Positions 1,746 through 58,629 of a stretch of DNA of 64,000 nucleotides are shown piece after piece. Source of the DNA: Chiloscyllium plagiosum. Taxonomy: Eukaryota. Location of the stretch: assembly GCF_004010195.1 (NCBI RefSeq), contig NC_057749.1, positions 7,461,416-7,525,415 of the forward strand, in the 5' to 3' direction. The number at the start of each line of letters is the position of its first letter. Within the stretch, counting starts at the first letter, position 1. The position numbers were made by a program, and so were the translations under genes. The notes below the pieces were generated by a model. That model made no database searches. It was not told the DNA's origin and saw only the letters and a list, made by a program, of their open reading frames with translations.

Positions 1746-2152
1746 TGGTTGGAGTGTGGTGGCTTTACTTCTGCCTCTTTATTCTCTTTCCCCTCAAATT
1801 TCGCTTTAAGGTAGTCTGGACTCTGCCTCAGCCATTCCATGTTGTGATGACATACTCATTCTTGGGAACTAAAATTGCTCCTTGATTTTTTTTTAATCCA
1901 TTTGCTGGCAAGAAATATATGAACACACTTCCATAGATGGTTCGGCTGGAATTTAAATCAGTGGAGGGGAAGGTGTGCCGCTGCTCAAATGGGGAATCTG
2001 CTCAATAGGGACATGACCGGGGATTAAGATCAAAGACATGGAAGGTTTCTTTGTTAGGAAAATAGCACAACAGCAGTATTAGTTAAAAGGCTTCTCCAGA
2101 TCATAGGTCCTGGCTATTGTGGTGATCTATCATTTTCCTCCTGAGCAGATTG

Positions 2153-2372
2153 GGATTGTGTTGCTGGAAAAGCGCAGCAGGTCAGGCAGCATCCAGGGAA
2201 CAGGAGAATCGACGTTTCGGGCATTAGCCCTTCTTCAGGAATGTCCTGAAGAAGGGCTAATACCCGAAACGTCGATTCTCCTGTTCCCTAGATGCTGCCT
2301 GACCTGCTGCGCTTTTCCAGCAACACATTTCCAGCTCTGATCTCCAGCATCTGCAGACCTCACTTTCTCCTC
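2153..2372. mobile_element. Palindromic PLE terminal module (family A) with a hammerhead core on each strand
   Basis: 84-bp inverted arms 2157-2240 and 2244-2327 (2 mismatches); CTGAAGA...GAAACGTC; flanking direct repeat tcctcctgagcagattg at 2136-2152 and 2368-2384. Confidence 0.85.
2246..2273 (+). ncRNA. Minimal type-I hammerhead ribozyme motif (mirror copy at 2211-2238 on the minus strand)
   Basis: CTGAAGA-A-GGG(ctaata)CCC-GAAAC-GTC; stem III reduced to the palindrome ACGT, as in PLE-type minimal hammerheads; activity not shown. Confidence 0.65.
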
Positions 2373-3202
2373 CTGAGCAGATTGCCCATTTGAGCACTGG
2401 TGCACCTTATCCTCCATCAATTTAAATGGTAAAGTCTTCTGCATAGACATATGAGGTACCATGCCTCTGTTGGGAGCAACTGTACAGGGTCAGATATTTC
2501 TAAGAATTGAGAAGGAGGCCATTTGGCCTACTTTATATCAACTCTCCACAATGGCAAGTTAGCCCTTTCTTCCTCCCCGATCAATTTGTATTTCCTCTTC
2601 AGATGCTTATCTAATTCACTTCTGACAACCCAACATCTCCATCACACACTCTAATACATTCCAGACCCTAAACATTCACTGCATAAAAAGCTTTCTGCTG
2701 ATGTTATTGTTGGTTATTTTCAGCAATCACTTTATCTCAGTGTCCTCTGGTTCTCAAAACTTTCACAAATGGGAATAGGTCAACTGGTCATTTGGTACTT
2801 TTCTGCTGGTGGGAGTTTACCACTTGCAAACTGCCAGCCTGCATTTACCTACCTGAGAAAAGCAACTCTTTTAAATGGGAAGCCATGAAAAGCTTTAGAC
2901 AAACTCAAGTCCTTGCTCAATTACTGCCATTTTATTAAGAATGGAGCCCTGCTCTGATCCAAGATTTTACCTTAATGTCACCCTGAGCTATGTTTACACT
3001 ACATTACACACTTACTGGGCTGCATTTGAACATTTGATGCCAATACAGAACTCAAGTTCTTTCTAAAACTCTCATTCAGCCTTCAACACATTGGAGTCAG
3101 TCCATCTGTTGACTGGACAGATCCTGCCTCTAATTCTGTGCCACATGTCAAGAACTGCAGCACACACCCTTCATGTACACTACTTTGTGCACACACACAT
3201 AC

Positions 3203-8034: not shown

Positions 8035-8148
8035 AAAAGTGAGGACTGCAGATGCTGGAAATCAGAGTCTAGATTAGAGTGGTGCTGGAAAAGCACAGCA
8101 GGTCAGCAGCACCCGAGGAGCAGGAAAATCAACGTTTCAGGCAAAAGC
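8035..8148 (-). mobile_element. PLE family A single arm
   Basis: aaagtgaggactgcagatgctgga...gctggaaaagcacagcaggtcag matches the element at 2153-2372. Confidence 0.8.
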
Positions 8149-13386: not shown

Positions 13387-14610
13387 AATCATCAAATCAT
13401 ACAGCATGAAAACAGATCCTTTGGTGCAACCAGTCCATACTGACCACGTTCCCAAACTAAACAAGTCCCACTTTCCTGCGTTTGGCCCTATCTCTCCAAA
13501 CCTTTCCCATTCATGGTCTTAGGAGAAAGTGAGGACTGCAGATGCTGGAGATCAGAGTTGAAAAATGTGTTGCTGGAAAGACACAGCAGCGCAGGCAGCA
13601 TCTGAGGAAGCAGGAGAATCGACGTTTCGGGCAAAAGCCCTTCTTCAGCCTTCATTCCTGAAGAAGGGCTTATGCCCGAAACGTCGATTCTCCTGCTCCT
13701 CGGATGCTGCCTGGCCTGCTGTGTTTTTCCAGCATTCATGGACTTAACCAAATGTCTTTTAAACGTCATAACTGTACCTGCATCCGCCACTTCCTCTGGC
13801 AGTTCATTCCACACACGAACCACCCTCTGCATAAAAAGGTTGCCCTTTTGGAAACTTTCTCCTCTCACTTTAAAAATATGCCTCCTAGTTTTGAACTCAC
13901 CTACCCAGGGGAAAAGACCCTTGGCTATTCACCTTATCAATGTCCTTCATGATTTTATAAACCTCGATAAGGGCACGCCTCAGCCTCCTACCCTCCAGTG
14001 GGAAAAGGCCCAGCCTAGCTTTATAACTCAAACCCTCCATTCCCACGAACATTCTGGTAAATCCTTTCTGAACCCTCTCCAGCTTAATAATATCCTTCCC
14101 ATAACTAGATGACCAGAACTGCACACAGTGCTCCAAGAGGCCTCAGCAATGTCCTGTACAACCTCAGCATGACTTCATAACTCCTATACTCAAAGGTCTG
14201 AGCAATGAAGTCAAGCATGCTAAACACCTTCTTAACCATCCTTTCTACCTGTGATGCAAACTTCAAAGTATTATATACCTGAACCCCTTGGTCTCATTGT
14301 TTTATAACACTATCCAGGGCACTACCATTAATTGTATAAGTCCTGTCCCTGTTTGTTTTACCAAAATGCAATACCTCATGTTTACCCAAGTTAAACTTTA
14401 TCTACCACTCCTCAGCCAATTGATCCAATTGATCAAGAACCCTTTGCCATCTGAGTTAACCTTCTTCACTGTCCACTATACCACCAATTTTGTTGTCATC
14501 CACAAACTTACTAACCATGCCTCCTGTTTACTCATCCAAATTTTTTGTATGAATCATAAACAAAAGTGGGCTCAATCCCGATCCCGTGGAACACCGCTGG
14601 TCACAGACTT
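13387..14610 (-). mobile_element. CR1 LINE, about 1 kb 3' fragment with a nested PLE module
   Basis: EHCVQFWS...LERVQKGFTRM...RLRRALIEVYKIM; decayed SKFxDD region near 14490. Confidence 0.92.
13522..13732. mobile_element. Palindromic PLE family A module with intact hammerhead cores
   Basis: TSD cattcatgg(t/a)ctta at 13508-13521 and 13733-13746; cores at 13621-13648 (-) and 13658-13685 (+). Confidence 0.88.
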
Positions 14611-19729: not shown

Positions 19730-19810
19730 AACAAAAACAGAAATTGCTGGAAAAGCTCAGCATGTCTGGCAGCACCTGTGGAGAGAAATCAGAGTTAACG
19801 TTTCGGGTCT
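19730..19810 (-). mobile_element. PLE family C arm
   Basis: aaaaacagaaattgctggaaaagctcagc...gttaacgtttcggg; also at 22520-22590 and 57340-57430. Confidence 0.65.
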
Positions 19811-20905: not shown

Positions 20906-21535
20906 GGAAACAGATCCTTCGGTCCAATTTGTCCATGCCGACCAGATATCCTAAATTAATCAAATCCCATTTGCCAGCACTTGGCCCATATCCCTCTAAA
21001 TCCTTCTTGTTCATCTACCCATCCAGATGCCTTTTCAATGTTGTGATTATACCAGTCTCCACCACTTCCTCTGGCAGCTCATTCCATACACGCACCACCC
21101 TCTGTGTGAAAAATCTGCCCCTTAGATCCCTTTTAAATCTTTCCTCTCTCACCCTGAACCTATGCCCTCTCATTTTTGACTCACCTCTCCTGGAAAAAGC
21201 ATTTTGGCTATTCACCCTATTCATGATCCTCATGATTTTATAAACCTCTATGAGATCACCCCTCAACCTCTGATGTTCCAGGGAAAATATTCCCAGCCCC
21301 CCCTACAGCTGAAACCCTCCAGCCCTGGCAACGTCTTTGTAAATCGTTTCTGAACCCTTTCAAGTTTCAGCAGGAGATCAGATTTGAATGCAGTATTCCA
21401 AAAATATTCTAAACAATGTCCTGTACAACCATAACATGACCTCCCAACCTCTGTATTCAATGCACTGACCAACAAAGGTAAGCAGGTAAAGACCTTGTTC
21501 ACTACCCTGACTACCTGCAACTCCACTTGCAAGGG
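20906..21535 (-). mobile_element. CR1 LINE 3' fragment (extreme tail at 20078-20107)
   Basis: RGDLIEVYKIM...FFTQRVVRVWNELPEEVV. Confidence 0.92.
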
Positions 21536-21536
21536 T

Positions 21537-21660
21537 CCCAATGAAGGGTTAAGTCTGAAACGTTGACCCTCTTGATCCTCAGACACTGCCTGACTCGCTG
21601 TGCTTTTTCCACACTTTATCAACTCTGCTCTCTCCAGCAACTGCAGTCCTCACTGTCTGC
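21537..21660 (+). mobile_element. PLE-type arm related to family A
   Basis: atgaagggttaagtctgaaacgttgac...ctccagcaactgcagtcctcact. Confidence 0.65.
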
Positions 21661-21802
21661 TACTCCACTATAAAGGAACTATGAAAGAAATAAGTCACCC
21701 TTCCTTCAGCGTTGCTGGGTCAAAATCCCAGAACTCAGCATTGAGAGTGTACCTACACCAAATGGCAGCTCAAGAAGGAAACTCACCACCACCTTCTCAC
21801 CA

Positions 21803-21940
21803 CCTCATTCCTAATGAAGGGCTTTTGCCCAAAATGTTGATTTTCCTGCTCCTCAGATGCTGCCTGACCCGCTATGCTTTTCCTGCACCACTCTAATCTT
21901 GACTCTGCTCTCCAGCATCTGCAGTACACACTTTTCACCT
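21803..21940 (+). mobile_element. PLE family A arm nested in a LINE/SINE 3' tail (21690-22015)
   Basis: cattcctaatgaagggcttttgcccaaaatgttga (decayed core)...ctccagcatctgcag. Confidence 0.8.
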
Positions 21941-24815: not shown

Positions 24816-24904
24816 TGTTAAGATCAAGTGACTCCATTCTTATCTTGATTCAGGAGATCACAGACCCAAACTCCAATCCAGGAGTTAAACCACCCAATGA
24901 GTGC

Positions 24905-25003
24905 TGATTAGTGGTGCTGGAAAAGCACAGCAGGTCAGGCAGCATCCAAGGAGCAGGAATATCGACATTTCGAGCAAAAGCCCTTCATCAGGAATAATTC
25001 CTG
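24905..25003 (-). mobile_element. PLE family A arm with the start of a fold-back
   Basis: gcccttcatcaggaat-a-attcctga. Confidence 0.8.
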
Positions 25004-30239: not shown

Positions 30240-30590
30240 CCGGGACGTGATCACCAACTCCTCGCCGCCCTGGCATCCTAGATGTTTCATCATATGACCT
30301 GCCACCTCCATCGTCCCTGTTCCCATACATTGGTCATCATTTATACATATGCGTTTTCAGGTACTGCACGTTTTCAGCGGTTTGTCAGCCCGATTATAAA
30401 TACTATACTGTACTGTAATTGCATTATTATTACTGCATTCTTATATTTAAGATGTTTTAGCTAAAATATATAGAATATACTAAGACAAATAATTGACTAA
30501 TTGATGCTAGATGTGAACCATACATAATTGTTCCGACTTATAAATTCGACTTACAAACTGACTTGTTTGTAACCCGGGGACTTCCTGCAC
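30240..30590 (+). mobile_element. Tigger-like DNA transposon end fragment
   Basis: Ends gtaacccggggacttcctgca (Tigger-type TIR); internal ccgactta/tcgactta repeats. Confidence 0.5.
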
Positions 30591-30700
30591 TGCAGATCCT
30601 GGAATCTGTACTGAAAACAAAAACTGCTGGAGGTCACAGCGGGTCAGGCAGCATCCACAGGACAGAGAGCAACGTTTCAAATCCAGATGACTCCCTCTCA
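30591..30700 (-). mobile_element. PLE-type arm
   Basis: tgcagatcctggaatc...gctggaggtcacagcgggtcaggcagcatcc...aacgtttc. Confidence 0.65.
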
Positions 30701-36412: not shown

Positions 36413-36592
36413 GCGAAAGTGAGGACTAGAGATTAGAATTGAGAGTGTGGTGCTGAAAAAGCACAGCAGGTCACGCAGTATCTGAGGAGCATGAATTCCC
36501 GATGAAGGGCTTTTGCCTGAAATGTCGATTCTCTTGCTCCTCAGATGCTGCCTGACCTGCTGTGTTTTTCCAGCACTACACTCTCAACTCTT
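36413..36592. mobile_element. Palindromic PLE family A module nested in a family E element (36310-36745)
   Basis: TSD gatacataa(c/t)aag at 36400-36412 and 36593-36605. Confidence 0.85.
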
Positions 36593-46899: not shown

Positions 46900-47825
46900 G
46901 ACTACACCTCCTCGCACCCTGCCCCCTGTAAAAACGCCATCCCATTCTCCCAATTCCTTCGACTCCGCCGCATCTGCTCCCAGGAGGACCAGTTCCAAAA
47001 ACGTACAACCCAGATGGCCTCCTTCTTCAAGGACCGCAATTTCCCCCCCGACGTGGTCGACGATGCCCTCCACCGCATCTCTTCCACTTCCCGCTCCTCC
47101 GCCCTTGAACCCCGCCCCTCCAACCGCCACCAGGACAGAACCCCACTCGTCCTCACCTACCACCCCACCAATCTCCATGTACAGCCCATCATCCGCCGTC
47201 ACTTCCGCCACCTCCAAACAGACATCAGCACCAAGGATATATTTCCCTCCCCTCCCCTATCAGCTTTCCGTAGAGACCACTCCCTCCGCGACTCCCTTGT
47301 CAGATCCACACCCCCCACCGACCCAACCACCACTCCCGGCACCTTCCCTTGCAACCGCAGGAGGTGCAACACTTGCGCCCACACCTCCCCCCTCACTCCT
47401 CTCCAAGGCCCCAAAGGAAACTTCCATATCCGCCACAGATTCACCTGCACCTCCACCCACATCATCTACTGCATCCGCTGCAGCCGGTGTGGCCTCCTCT
47501 ATATTGGGGAGACAGGCCGCCTACTTGCGGAGCGATTCAGAGAGCACCTCTGGGCCACCCGCACGAACCAACCCAACCACCCTGTAGCACAGCATTTCAA
47601 CTCCCCCTCCCACTCCACCGAGGATATGCAGGTCATTGGACTCATCCACCGCCAAACCACAACAACCCGACGGTCGGAGGAGGAGCGTCTTATCTTCCGA
47701 CTGGGAACACTCCAACCGCAGGGGATGAACTTGGACCTCACCAGTTCCTTCACCCCCCCTCCCCCCACCTTCTCTCAGCCGNNNNNNNNNNNNNCTCCAG
47801 CATCTGCAGTCCTCACTTTCTCCTC
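46900..47825 (+). mobile_element. 5'-truncated PLE (Neptune-like): RT C-terminus, Cys linker and GIY-YIG endonuclease; gap at 47782-47794; family A terminus at 47795-47825
   Basis: Open frame from 46900: DYTSSHP...IPFSQFLRLRRICS; CNRRRCNTC linker; IIYCIRCSRCGLLYIGETGRLLAERFREH; LGTLQPQGMN. Confidence 0.92.
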
Positions 47826-52547: not shown

Positions 52548-52665
52548 AATTATGCCTGAAACATAGATTCTTCTGCTCCTTAGATGCTGCCTGACCGGCT
52601 GTGCTTCTCCAGCACCACACTCTTTGACTCTGATCTCCAGCATCTGCAGTCCTCACTTTCTTCCT
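52548..52665 (+). mobile_element. PLE family A arm
   Basis: gatgctgcctgacc...ctctgatctccagcatctgcagtcctcactttc. Confidence 0.82.
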
Positions 52666-54734: not shown

Positions 54735-55190
54735 AGAAACTTGTGCATTTGTACAGCGCCTCTCAGCCTTTACAGCCAATGACAGACTCCTGAAGCCTTT
54801 TCTTTAAATTTGTAAGTGTTGGCAAGGCAGCAGTCATTTTGTACACAGCAGATTCCCTTCAGCAGCCATGTGATACTGACCAAGGCAGACAAGCAGGAGG
54901 CTGCAAGGACACAGCAGGCCAGGCAGCATCAGGAGGTGGAGAAGTCAACATTTTGGGTTTCAGCAAAAATCCAGATAATTAGCTTTAGAAATATCAAGCA
55001 AAGGAGAAATATTGACTAGGACACTCCATTGGCTTTTGAAATAACAGCACGGGATGTTTTAGCCTTTCTGATTGGGCAGATGGGGCTCAGATTAATATCT
55101 CAGCTGAACAGCGGCACCTCTGACAGTGTTGCACTTCCTCCTTATCTCAATGGAGAGTCAGCCTCATAGACTCCTGAAAAAGGACTTGGG
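54735..55190 (-). mobile_element. Deu-domain-like SINE with a nested PLE-type arm (54878-54960)
   Basis: tgcatttgtacagcgcct tail; ctgaacagcggcacctctgacagtg core. Confidence 0.5.
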
Positions 55191-57270: not shown

Positions 57271-57444
57271 AAACAAAACTCGTTCAAGTTTGTAAAAACC
57301 ATCTTGTTTACCCACATCTCTTCAGGGAAATCTTCCATAAAAGAAAAATGCTGGAGAAACTCAGCAGGTCTGGCAGCACCTGTGGAGGGAGAAACTGGGT
57401 TACTTTTTCGAAGTTGCTCAGACTCTTCACCAGAATGATGTCCC

Positions 57445-58438: not shown

Positions 58439-58629
58439 AAAAATCAACGAGTGTAGTGCTGGAAAAGCACTTCCAGTCAGGCAGCATCCGAGGTGCAGGG
58501 GAATCGATGTTTCGAGCACAAGCTTTTCATCAGGAAACGTTGCTCCTCGGATGCTGCCTGATCTGCAGCGCTTTTCCAGCGCCACACTTTCTGACTCTGA
58601 TCTCCAGCATCTGCAGTCCTCACTTTGTC
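58439..58629. mobile_element. Palindromic PLE family A module
   Basis: Inverted arms; TSD ctcttcaa at 58431-58438 and 58630-58637. Confidence 0.82.

What the first reader, a model, noticed from the sequence alone, without database searches (positions are those of the whole stretch)
2136..2384. Tiny palindromic insertion with a hammerhead-ribozyme core on each strand
Seen: 84-bp inverted arms with 2 mismatches and a 3-nt spacer. Each arm has CTGAAGA-stem II-GAAACGTC, and the unit lies inside a 13-17 bp direct repeat. Known: Penelope-like retroelements carry minimal type-I hammerheads whose palindromic stem III is thought to need dimerisation. Inference: this non-coding ~220-bp module inserted as a unit. 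Any transcript through it contains one ribozyme and its antisense, so cleavage would compete with a long dsRNA hairpin that could be an ADAR or Dicer substrate.
Basis: partly seen in the sequence, partly recalled or inferred. Interest (0 to 1): 0.72.

Follow-up and report, generated by a model that had tools for sequence, protein, structure and literature searches.

The report
Fold-back Penelope-like retroelement tail insertion
This is a very recent 215-base insertion made of two head-to-head copies of the end piece of a hugely abundant Penelope-like jumping gene, each carrying that family's usual mini hammerhead motif; it is an ordinary by-product of how these elements insert, not a new kind of mobile ribozyme module.

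Summary
The arm is the terminal (pLTR) segment of a Penelope-like element (PLE). Longer copies run upstream into reverse-transcriptase and GIY-YIG-type coding sequence. A 36-mer of the arm occurs 72,776 times in this 3.56-Gb genome. Contigs from three other DNA runs join window 2135 directly to 2368, so the whole palindrome entered in one recent event. In an unselected sample of 66 insertion sites, 33 are head-to-head pairs like this one. Of these, 32 carry the 36-nt "tail" on exactly one arm, as here. The hammerhead motif fits the published PLE "min-HHR" description, but no Rfam hammerhead model matches it. Insertion ends do not coincide with the predicted cut site. In this context the motif would be buried in a -188 kcal/mol hairpin. 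The PLE literature already describes inverted truncated copies, one-sided tails and hammerheads on opposite strands. Verdict: a new member of a known kind, of modest interest, mainly as a genomic signature of double-strand priming.

The parts
2136..2152 (.). Left copy of the target-site duplication (TCCTCCTGAGCAGATTG). It is present once in the empty allele.
   Evidence: Identical to 2368-2384. Empty-site contigs join 2135 to 2368. The first TCC could also be read as the last bases of the element tail, so the duplication is 14-17 nt.
2153..2243 (-). Left arm: a PLE terminal (pLTR) segment on the - strand. It runs from CATTCC at the centre to the first reverse-transcription start zone (...CAACACA) at the outer end and has no tail.
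   Evidence: The outer end corresponds to family position about +90. The inner end reaches the CAT seen in long copies.
2211..2238 (-). Minimal hammerhead motif of the left arm: CTGAAGA, an extra A, stem GGGC/GCCC with loop TAAT, then GAAA-CG-TC. The predicted cut is after the C at 2211.
   Evidence: Descriptor match; sequence.
2244..2335 (+). Right arm body: the same PLE segment on the + strand, from TCCTGAAG to ...CATTTCCAGC.
   Evidence: 100% identical over 90 nt to at least 10 other loci in the genome.
2246..2273 (+). Hammerhead motif of the right arm. Stem II is weakened to GGG/CCC with a 6-nt loop. The predicted cut is after C 2273.
   Evidence: it fails only the rule of at least 4 stem pairs.
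2336..2367 (+). The PLE 'tail' (TCTGATCTCCAGCATCTGCAGACCTCACTTTC, continuing into TCC of the duplication), present on this arm only.
   Evidence: The same extension ends 32 of 33 sampled pairs on exactly one arm. The one-sided 30-40-bp tail is described in passages of PMC8557442. The main text of PMC11167929 explains it as the stretch between two RT start sites.
2368..2384 (.). Right copy of the target-site duplication.

Best explanation
Window 2153-2367 is one recent insertion by an active, very high-copy Penelope-like retroelement (PLE). The insertion is absent from other sequenced DNA of the same species label. It holds two copies of the element's short terminal (pLTR) segment joined head to head and bracketed by a 14-17-nt target duplication. 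Each arm runs from a fixed inner point (CATTCC, 5 nt before the hammerhead core) to one of two fixed outer points: about +90-99 on the left arm and about +130, which adds the 36-nt tail, on the right arm. The mechanism is inferred. The PLE endonuclease cuts both target strands about 15 nt apart. Each 3' end primes reverse transcription at one of the two internal start sites of PLE RNA. Both cDNAs run to the 5' end of the RNA (a likely transcription start in the pLTR, or a strong RT stop) and are joined in the middle. The hammerhead motif is present because it lies within the first 33 nt of the copied segment; it is a passenger. In a transcript of this locus its antisense partner is always made first, and the motif is the part of the 90-bp stem next to the loop, so it should be locked in duplex and inactive. 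Shown here: the anatomy, the single-event insertion, family membership, and the frequency and regularity of such pairs. Inferred: priming from both strands, the nature of the 5' end, and ribozyme inactivity.
For: Anatomy. Single event: in runs X15, X16 and X18 (3 samples, 1 study) contig records 2, 9 and 15 run without a break from window 2135 to 2368, with 0, 0 and 3 other letters. With 31-letter words a 17-nt repeat cannot fake this join.

Family: an arm 36-mer occurs 36,544 times forward and 36,232 times reverse, control 0. The motif CTGANGAAGGGCNNNNNCCCGAAACGTCGAT occurs 33,035 + 33,029 times, control 0.

PLE identity: long copies continue upstream into an ORF ending ...IIYCILCTRCGLLYIGETG (L001) and an RT piece ...GVAMGTHMGPSYACLFVGYVEQ...FLRYID (L005). 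L001:589-1410 has 122 relatives, the best being shark proteins at 76-77% identity. By my own hmmscan, relative P0005 carries RVT_1 and P0016 carries RVT_1 plus GIY-YIG, both above the Pfam cut-off.

Regularity: I took 66 sites in positional order on contig C1 (42 kb to 2.40 Mb), chosen only for an exact 36-mer. Of these, 33 are (-,+) head-to-head pairs: 32 have the tail on one arm, 1 on both, 0 on neither (binomial P <= 4e-9 for independent tails). Singles carry the tail in 11 of 33. An exact 12-16-nt repeat flanks the whole pair in 23 of 28 pairs examined, with mode 15. The two arms share the subfamily state at position 47 in 24 of 25 pairs, against 0.5 expected. Three pairs (L046, L050, L066) split one unit into an inverted tail piece plus the body, as twin priming on one RNA predicts. 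The three other pairs in this window also have one tail each. 5' ends cluster: 13 of 19 short single arms start within -4..+8 of CATTCC.

Literature: inverted 5'-truncated copies and a one-sided tail (PMC8557442 passages). The anole PLE protein cuts and extends both strands and starts RT at two internal sites, and HHR cleavage is not needed for insertion (PMC11167929 main text). Min-HHR features and 'dual min-HHRs ... in opposite strands' (PMC4209133 main text).

Folding: whole unit -188.3 kcal/mol, z -21.7; single arm -24.7, z -0.10.
Against: No complete element with both pLTRs was inspected, because several long copies have withheld (N) stretches. Pfam on this genome's own fragments is weak: 0 families for L001:589-1410 and RVT_1 at E 0.018, below the cut-off, for L005. 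The domain calls therefore rest on relatives.

The two arms differ at 2 of 84 positions, both A in the right arm against G in the left, although the insertion is young enough to be polymorphic. One RNA copied twice does not predict this; two related RNAs or RT errors would.

The 5'-end cluster is not shown to be a transcription start. No Rfam hammerhead model matches, even at E <= 10. Helix I with the element's own upstream bases is only 2-3 pairs, and no cleavage data exist.

The 66-site sample comes from one 2.4-Mb stretch and is limited to young copies. Arm ends are BLAST ends, good to a few nt and over-extended at some palindromic centres. One pair (L059) has two tails and no clear duplication. 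Five of 28 pairs show only 4-8 nt of exact flanking repeat.
Confidence: 0.85

Rival explanations
1. One reading: the ~220-bp palindrome is a self-contained non-coding mobile module (MITE-like or retrozyme-like). It propagates as such, and its two hammerheads act in its own transcripts.
For: It is flanked by a direct repeat and is absent from an empty allele. Each arm holds a motif meeting most min-HHR criteria. Palindromes of similar size recur: 17 close (-,+) pairs among the first 100 places of the 36-mer.
Against: The centre junctions differ between pairs in truncation points and filler bases. The window's exact junction is found at only 10 places against 72,776 for the arm 36-mer. Single arms with their own duplications are equally common, and the arms are collinear with long RT/EN copies. 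Insertion ends are not at the predicted cut: 69 of 72 arms still match at +13, beyond the cut site. Only 5 of 99 arms in the 66-site table (66 pair arms + 33 single arms) start at +28..+37. The hairpin buries the motif.
Confidence: 0.04
2. Same element and same single event, but the second arm is made by snap-back. The first cDNA reaches the RNA 5' end, folds back on itself and is copied, and the fold-back is then resolved. The opposite target strand does not prime independently.
For: Reverse transcriptases are known to self-prime second strands (recalled, not checked here). In two pairs the second arm stops far short of an RT start site: L026 at about +40 and L069 at +44 before a withheld stretch. 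The arms of a pair almost always share subfamily states.
Against: In most pairs the tail-less arm ends in the same narrow zone (+87..+102) as tail-less single insertions, which points to a defined initiation site rather than random resolution. The anole PLE protein extends both strands in vitro (PMC11167929). The 2 arm-to-arm differences in this window's young insertion are unexpected for a strand copied from itself.
Confidence: 0.15
3. Two independent insertions: a second truncated copy landed next to or inside the first in opposite orientation.
For: PLEs are reported to insert into or beside earlier copies (PMC6765202 passages). The two arms differ at two subfamily-variable positions.
Against: One 17-nt duplication brackets both arms, and none brackets either arm alone. 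The empty allele lacks both arms at once, and no half-filled form was seen among the contig pieces shown. The one-tail rule (32 of 33) and the matching subfamily states would not arise from independent hits.
Confidence: 0.02

Closest known systems
Insertion units of canonical endonuclease-positive Penelope-like elements (pLTR, adjacent inverted 5'-truncated copy, 30-40-bp tail at one end), as described in Craig et al. 2021 (PMC8557442, passages read)
   Same: A terminal segment of an RT + GIY-YIG element. An inverted truncated copy abuts it head to head. A 36-nt tail sits on one end only. A target duplication brackets the whole unit. A hammerhead lies in the pLTR.
   Different: Here both partners are reduced to the roughly 90-125-nt terminal segment with no ORF at all, so the product is a bare near-perfect hairpin. 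In this genome such bare pairs make up about half of young insertions (33 of 66).
Minimal hammerhead ribozymes of metazoan PLEs (Cervera & de la Pena 2014, PMC4209133, main text read)
   Same: A CUGANGA box, an extra nucleotide before stem II, a G10.1-C11.1 pair, GAAA, a palindromic C-G in place of helix III, a GUC site, a short helix I, and location in the pLTR. That paper also noted pairs of motifs on opposite strands about 100-700 bp apart.
   Different: N7 is A in the young lineage and U in the older one. The right arm's stem II is reduced to 3 pairs. Activity is untested. The two motifs are only about 8 nt apart at their 5' ends and fully complementary.
Internal, two-site initiation of reverse transcription and cleavage/extension of both strands by the anole PLE 'PAc' (Frangieh et al. 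2024, PMC11167929, main text read)
   Same: There are two discrete 3' ends about 36 nt apart, with the tail being the stretch between them. Products are consistent with priming from both target strands. Insertion ends are unrelated to the hammerhead cut.
   Different: That work is in vitro with a reptile element. Here the evidence is genomic, from a cartilaginous-fish-type genome. [quoted passage not shown]
Twin priming of LINE-1 (recalled from Ostertag & Kazazian 2001; not read here)
   Same: A second primer from the other target strand gives an inverted segment within one insertion bracketed by one duplication. L046, L050 and L066 are inversion/partition products of this type.
   Different: L1 twin priming gives an inversion without duplication. 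Most PLE pairs duplicate the whole segment, so both cDNAs reach the RNA 5' end. The internal primer site is fixed rather than set by microhomology. My search for 'twin priming' plus 'Penelope' listed 3 papers, none on PLE integration by title or abstract start, and none was read.
Non-LTR retrozymes (tandem hammerhead repeats giving circRNAs; PMC7229834 seen as a search listing only; bioRxiv 10.64898/2026.07.22.740005 abstract and passages read)
   Same: Short non-coding PLE-derived sequence with a type-I hammerhead, probably mobilised by PLE proteins.
   Different: This is not tandem. The unit ends are not at the ribozyme cut site. The arrangement is inverted, so no dimeric hammerhead can form in cis.
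MITEs and fold-back DNA transposons
   Same: Small, non-coding, long inverted arms and a flanking direct repeat.
   Different: The arms occur singly with their own duplications. Duplication length varies (exact repeats of 12-16 nt in most pairs). The centre and one end vary. The arm is the end of a retroelement.

Membership tests
PLE minimal hammerhead (min-HHR) | CUGANGA and GAAA boxes with a UH cleavage site in type-I order | tested here: met
   CTGAAGA...GAAACGTC at 2246-2273 (+) and 2238-2211 (-).
PLE minimal hammerhead (min-HHR) | [quoted passage not shown] | tested here: met
   An extra A, then GGGC...GCCC in the left arm. The right arm keeps G10.1-C11.1 but has only GGG/CCC. The feature list comes from PMC4209133.
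PLE minimal hammerhead (min-HHR) | No helix III; palindromic 15.2-16.2, so that two copies can pair | tested here: met
   GAAA-C-G-UC, i.e. ACGU.
PLE minimal hammerhead (min-HHR) | Helix I of about 4-5 bp | tested here: inconclusive
   With the element's own upstream bases (CAUUC against GAUUC) only G-C, A-U and one further A-U can pair. In this palindrome 6 of 8 positions pair by accident of the junction (read).
PLE minimal hammerhead (min-HHR) | Variation between lineages confined to permissive positions (selection on the core) | tested here: inconclusive
   Common (at least 10 arms) non-CpG variants fall at N7, at loop II positions 18 and 19, at one helix I position and at 4 of 12 positions downstream. 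Among 23 core, stem II and site positions there is only one, the G-to-A of this window's right-arm lineage, and that count is inflated by my own query. The old and young lineages differ in N7 and the loop. The samples are small and partly ascertained. Within the young family all non-CpG positions are equally conserved.
PLE minimal hammerhead (min-HHR) | Self-cleavage (as a dimer or protein-assisted) | not testable with these tools
   No assay was possible. No RNA reads were laid.
Rfam hammerhead families | A match to a curated covariance model | tested here: not met
   There was no hammerhead match at gathering score in the window or at E <= 10 in 2050-2470. From recall, these models expect a helix III.
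Canonical EN+ Penelope-like element | [quoted passage not shown] | tested here: met
   Collinear long copies. ORF pieces in L001 and L005. 122 relatives. RVT_1 and GIY-YIG are above the cut-off in relatives P0005 and P0016. This genome's own fragments score weakly.
Canonical EN+ Penelope-like element | Insertion signature: 5' truncation, an adjacent inverted copy, a one-sided 30-40-bp tail and a target duplication | tested here: met
   and, for this locus.
MITE / fold-back DNA transposon | Copies share both termini and the internal structure; the arms do not occur alone | tested here: not met
   33 of 66 sites are single arms. The junctions vary, and the exact junction occurs at only 10 places.
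Non-LTR retrozyme | Head-to-tail tandem units delimited by the hammerhead cut site | tested here: not met
   Inverted, not tandem. 69 of 72 arms extend beyond the cut site.
mir-3179 microRNA precursor (RF02021) | Score at or above the Rfam gathering threshold | tested here: not met
   66.2 bits against a threshold of 90.

The most novel reading that the evidence does not exclude
The strict pattern in pairs is the in-vivo footprint of a concerted reaction. The pattern has four parts: one arm ends at each of the two internal RT start sites (32 of 33 pairs), the arms belong to the same subfamily (24 of 25 at a 50:50 site), one duplication of about 15 nt brackets both arms, and occasional products split a single unit at the inner start site. 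In the proposed reaction a PLE ribonucleoprotein, possibly a dimer, cuts both target strands and hands each 3' end to a different fixed start site, and most often copies only the first 90-130 nt of an ordinary element mRNA. A rough extrapolation of 72,776 x 33/80 would put about 30,000 near-perfect 90-bp hairpins from the young lineages alone in this genome. These would be a large potential source of long double-stranded RNA and of fragile palindromes.
Probability: 0.35. Interest if true: 0.5.

Novelty: new member of a known kind. Interest (0 to 1): 0.3.

Why it matters
For the finding as posed it matters little. The palindrome with a hammerhead on each strand is what Penelope-like elements are already known to leave behind, and here the ribozyme is a passenger. 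Three points may interest transposon specialists. First, the family is extremely abundant (tens of thousands of exact 36-mers) and still active, as the empty allele at this very site shows. Second, half of its young insertions are bare hairpins. Third, the one-tail-per-pair rule and the fixed inner end give genomic support, in a distant vertebrate, for the two-site internal initiation and double-strand priming so far seen only in vitro with a lizard element. For annotation, such hairpins should be masked as PLE fragments. Otherwise they attract miRNA-type and ribozyme-type calls, as the 66-bit mir-3179 match shows.

Tried and rejected
Rfam: there was no hammerhead family at gathering score or at E <= 10. 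The best matches were miRNA hairpin models, all below threshold.

A DNA search of the genome with window 2274-2333 returned nothing, because its words are skipped as too common. I replaced it with pattern counts.

RNA evidence: no RNA holder was listed. Raw RNA run X20 (single-cell, polyA; about 6 in 100 of the run read) laid 0 reads, which is no test. Expression, transcript 5' ends, in-vivo cleavage, small RNAs and editing therefore remain untested.

ADAR-edited templates: among 99 young arms, private A>G changes (2, or 2.4 per 1000 A sites) do not exceed T>C changes (6, or 3.4 per 1000). I rejected this as an explanation of the two A/G arm differences.

Variation sits at three CpGs and at subfamily sites, so the test is uninformative.

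MITE at the target: the flanks carry a 59-nt, 80% inverted repeat, but the left flank is unique in the genome, so the target is not an abundant element.

The mir-3179 similarity was not pursued. A review table lists miR-3179-1/-2 as SINE/Alu-derived (PMC10136691 passages).

Lunse et al. 2017 (PMC5785218) is not held. I know it only as a reference in PMC6765202. Supplementary figures of PMC4209133, which give the vertebrate min-HHR alignments, were not consulted.
Full report
WHAT IS THERE. Window 2157-2240 and 2244-2327 are 84-nt inverted arms with two mismatches (2194/2290, 2222/2262). The repeat finder extends them to 90 nt at 96%. CTGAAGA-stem-GAAACGTC lies at 2246-2273 on the + strand and at 2238-2211 on the - strand. 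TCCTCCTGAGCAGATTG stands at 2136-2152 and again at 2368-2384. As RNA the unit folds into one hairpin of -188.3 kcal/mol (z = -21.7). A single arm has no more structure than its shuffles (-24.7 kcal/mol, z = -0.10).

IT IS A REPEAT, AND THE REPEAT IS THE END OF A PENELOPE-LIKE ELEMENT. The window has vertebrate-like CpG depletion (observed/expected 0.30) and lies in a 3.56-Gb assembly. The arm recurs at least a dozen times in the window at 70-93% identity. A 36-mer of the arm occurs 36,544 + 36,232 times in the genome, with a reversed control of 0. The hammerhead pattern CTGANGAAGGGCNNNNNCCCGAAACGTCGAT occurs 33,035 + 33,029 times, control 0.

In loci fetched around copies, short arms are bracketed by their own target duplications (L006, L007, L008). 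Long copies continue upstream through about 200 nt of non-coding sequence into an ORF. L001:589-1410 ends in ...FTCTSTHIIYCILCTRCGLLYIGETG. L005 carries ...GVAMGTHMGPSYACLFVGYVEQSIFRNYTGPTPHLFLRYID directly fused to an arm.

Pfam on these fragments is weak: none for L001 and RVT_1 at E 0.018 for L005. However, the L001 ORF has 122 relatives. The best named ones are Chiloscyllium punctatum (76-77% identity) and Stegostoma tigrinum (66%) proteins. In my own scan, relative P0005 has RVT_1 and P0016 has RVT_1 plus GIY-YIG, both above the cut-off, while P0001 has GIY-YIG just below it, over the stretch that aligns with the L001 motif. RT plus a C-terminal GIY-YIG nuclease is the defining architecture of endonuclease-positive PLEs (PMC4209133 and PMC11167929, main texts read).

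IT WENT IN AS ONE PIECE, RECENTLY. I laid Logan contigs of three DNA runs with the same species label (X15, X16, X18; three samples, one study) on window 1900-2640. In each run one contig passes without a break from 2135 to 2368: record 2 at its positions 215|214, record 9 at 207|206, record 15 at 478|479. The flanks show 0, 0 and 3 other letters. These contigs therefore lack exactly 2136-2367, that is the 215-nt insert plus one copy of the 17-nt repeat. A 17-nt repeat cannot create such a join in an assembly built from 31-letter words. Whether the filled allele is also present in those runs cannot be told from contigs. Either way the insertion is polymorphic or heterozygous, so it is young. 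This fits the right arm being 100% identical over 90 nt to at least ten other loci.

HEAD-TO-HEAD PAIRS ARE A REGULAR PRODUCT. The pattern search lists places in positional order, so its first entries are unselected with respect to structure. Among the first 100 places, 17 (-,+) couples lie 87-407 nt apart. I examined the 66 distinct sites that cover the first 80 places (C1, 42 kb to 2.40 Mb).

I use a family coordinate in which 0 is the C of CATTCCTGAAGAAGGG. In this coordinate the hammerhead C3 is +5, the predicted cut lies between +32 and +33, the 36-mer is +50..+85, the tail-less end is about +90..+99, and the tailed end is about +130.

- 33 of 66 sites are head-to-head pairs and 33 are single copies.
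- In 32 of 33 pairs exactly one arm carries the 36-nt tail. One pair (L059) has two tails and none has zero. Single copies have the tail in 11 of 33. If tails were independent, the chance of at least 32 of 33 is 4e-9 or less.
- An exact direct repeat of 12-16 nt (mode 15) flanks the whole pair in 23 of 28 pairs examined. The other five show only 4-8 nt.
- The two arms of a pair share the state of a subfamily-diagnostic site that is 50:50 in the population in 24 of 25 pairs.
- Inner ends cluster. 13 of 19 short single arms begin within -4..+8 (three N-cut loci set aside). By BLAST ends, 40 of 66 pair arms begin within -7..+9 (my count). These ends are good to a few nt and are over-extended at some palindromic centres.
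- Older copies in the window and loci begin at the same (C)ATTCC.
- Three pairs (L046, L050, L066) are not duplications but partitions: an inverted tail-only piece abuts the 5' end of a tail-less body.
- The three other pairs in this window (13521-13734, 36426-36591, 58452-58626) also have one tail each.

The finding's locus fits this scheme. The left arm runs from CAT (the supposed spacer) to about +90, the right arm from +3 to the tail end, and the duplication is 14-17 nt.

HOW IT MOST LIKELY ARISES. What follows is inferred. Published work on an anole PLE shows three things. The protein cleaves and extends both target strands. Reverse transcription starts internally at two adjacent sites, and the stretch between them is the tail. 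Ribozyme cleavage is not needed for insertion (PMC11167929 main text). [quoted passage not shown]

The data here fit a twin-priming scheme. A staggered double cut of about 15 nt is made, and each 3' end is handed to one of the two start sites. Both cDNAs then run to a fixed 5' end and are joined there. When the outer cDNA is stopped at the inner start site, the partition products result.

The fixed inner end lies in TCATTCC, which fits the initiator consensus YYANWYY (recalled). PLE promoters are reported to lie in the pLTR (PMC6765202 passages). My reading is therefore that the short arms are complete copies of the first 90-130 nt of ordinary element mRNA. A strong RT stop would look the same.

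A snap-back origin of the second arm is the main mechanistic rival. The defined outer end of the tail-less arm and the two arm-to-arm differences at this young locus argue against it, but it is not excluded. The two differences (A in the right arm, G in the left) remain unexplained. There is no general A>G excess in young arms that would suggest edited templates.

THE HAMMERHEAD. The motif has the features that Cervera and de la Pena list for metazoan PLE min-HHRs. [quoted passage not shown]

A descriptor I wrote from that description finds 4 matches in the window, all in this repeat, and none in 200 Markov shuffles. The right arm fails it only because its stem II has three pairs. Helix I with the element's own upstream bases is only 2-3 pairs. 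No Rfam hammerhead model matches.

Between lineages the changes fall where a hammerhead tolerates them. In the first 100 places of the pattern, N7 is A in 67, U in 31 and G in 2, and the loop varies (UUUU, UUAU, UCAU, UAAU) with the stem kept, although the pattern itself fixed the core. In 149 arms from DNA already held, common non-CpG variants hit N7 and two loop positions. They hit only one of 23 core, stem and site positions, and that one is this window's own lineage, over-sampled by my query. This is suggestive of constraint in source copies, but the samples are small and partly ascertained.

Individual insertions decay neutrally, mostly at the three CpGs inside the motif. Insertion ends ignore the cut site: 69 of 72 arms still match at +13. 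Only five of 99 arms in the sample (66 pair arms + 33 single arms) start at +28..+37. This agrees with the anole result that unprocessed RNA is the substrate.

In a transcript of this locus in either direction the antisense arm is made first, and the motif is the part of the stem next to the loop. There is also only one sense copy, so the dimer that such motifs need cannot form in cis. I therefore expect no cleavage. This is inference from folding energies and geometry, not a test.

COMPARISON AND VERDICT. Every structural element of the finding has been described for PLEs, including min-HHRs lying close together on opposite strands. An earlier report of this scan on another piece of the same genome reached the same reading (e1-7788964), and I tested that reading independently here. 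It is not a MITE, a retrozyme or a miRNA gene (see the membership rows).

What may be new is quantitative. The family is enormous and still active. Half of its young insertions are bare hairpins. The two RT start sites are used one each in a pair. I did not find that last regularity stated in the passages and texts I read, and a search for 'twin priming' with 'Penelope' listed 3 papers, none on PLE integration by title or abstract start (not read). That search is narrow, and the older PLE literature is mostly not held. I rate the finding as a new member of a known kind, interest 0.3.

Noticed in passing
window 2201-2283 (-): The hairpin scores 66.2 bits (E 3.7e-13) against the Rfam mir-3179 model. 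That is below its gathering score of 90 but about 30 bits above other miRNA hairpin models on the same stretch, so some sequence similarity exists (AGAAGGG..., AAACGUC, UCCUG). A review table lists human miR-3179-1/-2 as SINE/Alu-derived (PMC10136691).
   Followed up: partly
window 1951-2009 and 2369-2427: The target site itself lies between 59-nt inverted repeats that are 80% complementary and would be about 127 nt apart in the empty allele. The left flank 1940-2135 is unique in the genome, so this is not an abundant element.
   Followed up: partly
window 8036-8148, 13521-13734, 19744-19808, 21535-21661, 21806-21934, 24897-24995, 30590-30678, 36426-36591, 52552-52659, 54900-54964, 57349-57393, 58452-58626: Further copies of the same PLE terminal segment at 70-93% identity. 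Three of them are head-to-head pairs (13521-13734, 36426-36591, 58452-58626), each with the tail on one arm only. The older ones carry CTGATGA instead of CTGAAGA.
   Followed up: partly
L004 (G000:C27:18728082-18731171), just upstream of the arm: A 72-nt direct duplication of the stretch that ends in the hammerhead. Its junction lies 3 nt past the predicted cut site (...GAAACGTCGAT|CCCTATC...). It may be a template switch near the cleavage position.
   Followed up: no
L005 (G000:C18:30472889-30475978), about 1590-1900: A head-to-head pair whose centre holds about 250 nt of reverse-transcriptase coding sequence fused to the arm start exactly at ...CGCTACATCGAT|TCCTGAAG. It looks like a jump from the 5' end of a short RNA into the middle of another element RNA.
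   Followed up: partly
protein P0002 (522 aa, named by its source as a Stegostoma tigrinum protein), C-terminus: The annotated protein runs through the element's 3' non-coding region and ends ...SLMKGLRPKRQLLCS. This is what a CCTGATGAAGGGC...CC.AAACGTC stretch would encode, which hints that the hammerhead segment is shared with another shark genus and that gene models there include PLE tails.
   Followed up: no
L025, L027, L035 (3' flanks of the arms): Three unrelated insertions sit in flanks that share atctgtcct(a/t)tatct(a/g)tca(c/t)ccc. This suggests another repeat family is a frequent landing site, or is simply abundant.
   Followed up: no
L046, L050, L066 (contig C1): Insertions in which one unit is split at the inner RT start zone into an inverted tail-only piece and a tail-less body, within one 14-15-nt duplication. 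These are the inversion-without-duplication counterpart of the palindromes.
   Followed up: partly
runs X2-X14 (coded organisms B-E): Contig sets of four other coded organisms hold 10-18% of the sampled words of window 1900-2640. This is presumably the repeat part, so near-identical 31-mers of this PLE segment may be shared across related species.
   Followed up: no
window 47782-47794: A run of 13 N. Immediately after it (47795-47825) lies a 31-nt match (97%) to the PLE tail, so an assembly gap sits inside or beside another copy.
   Followed up: no
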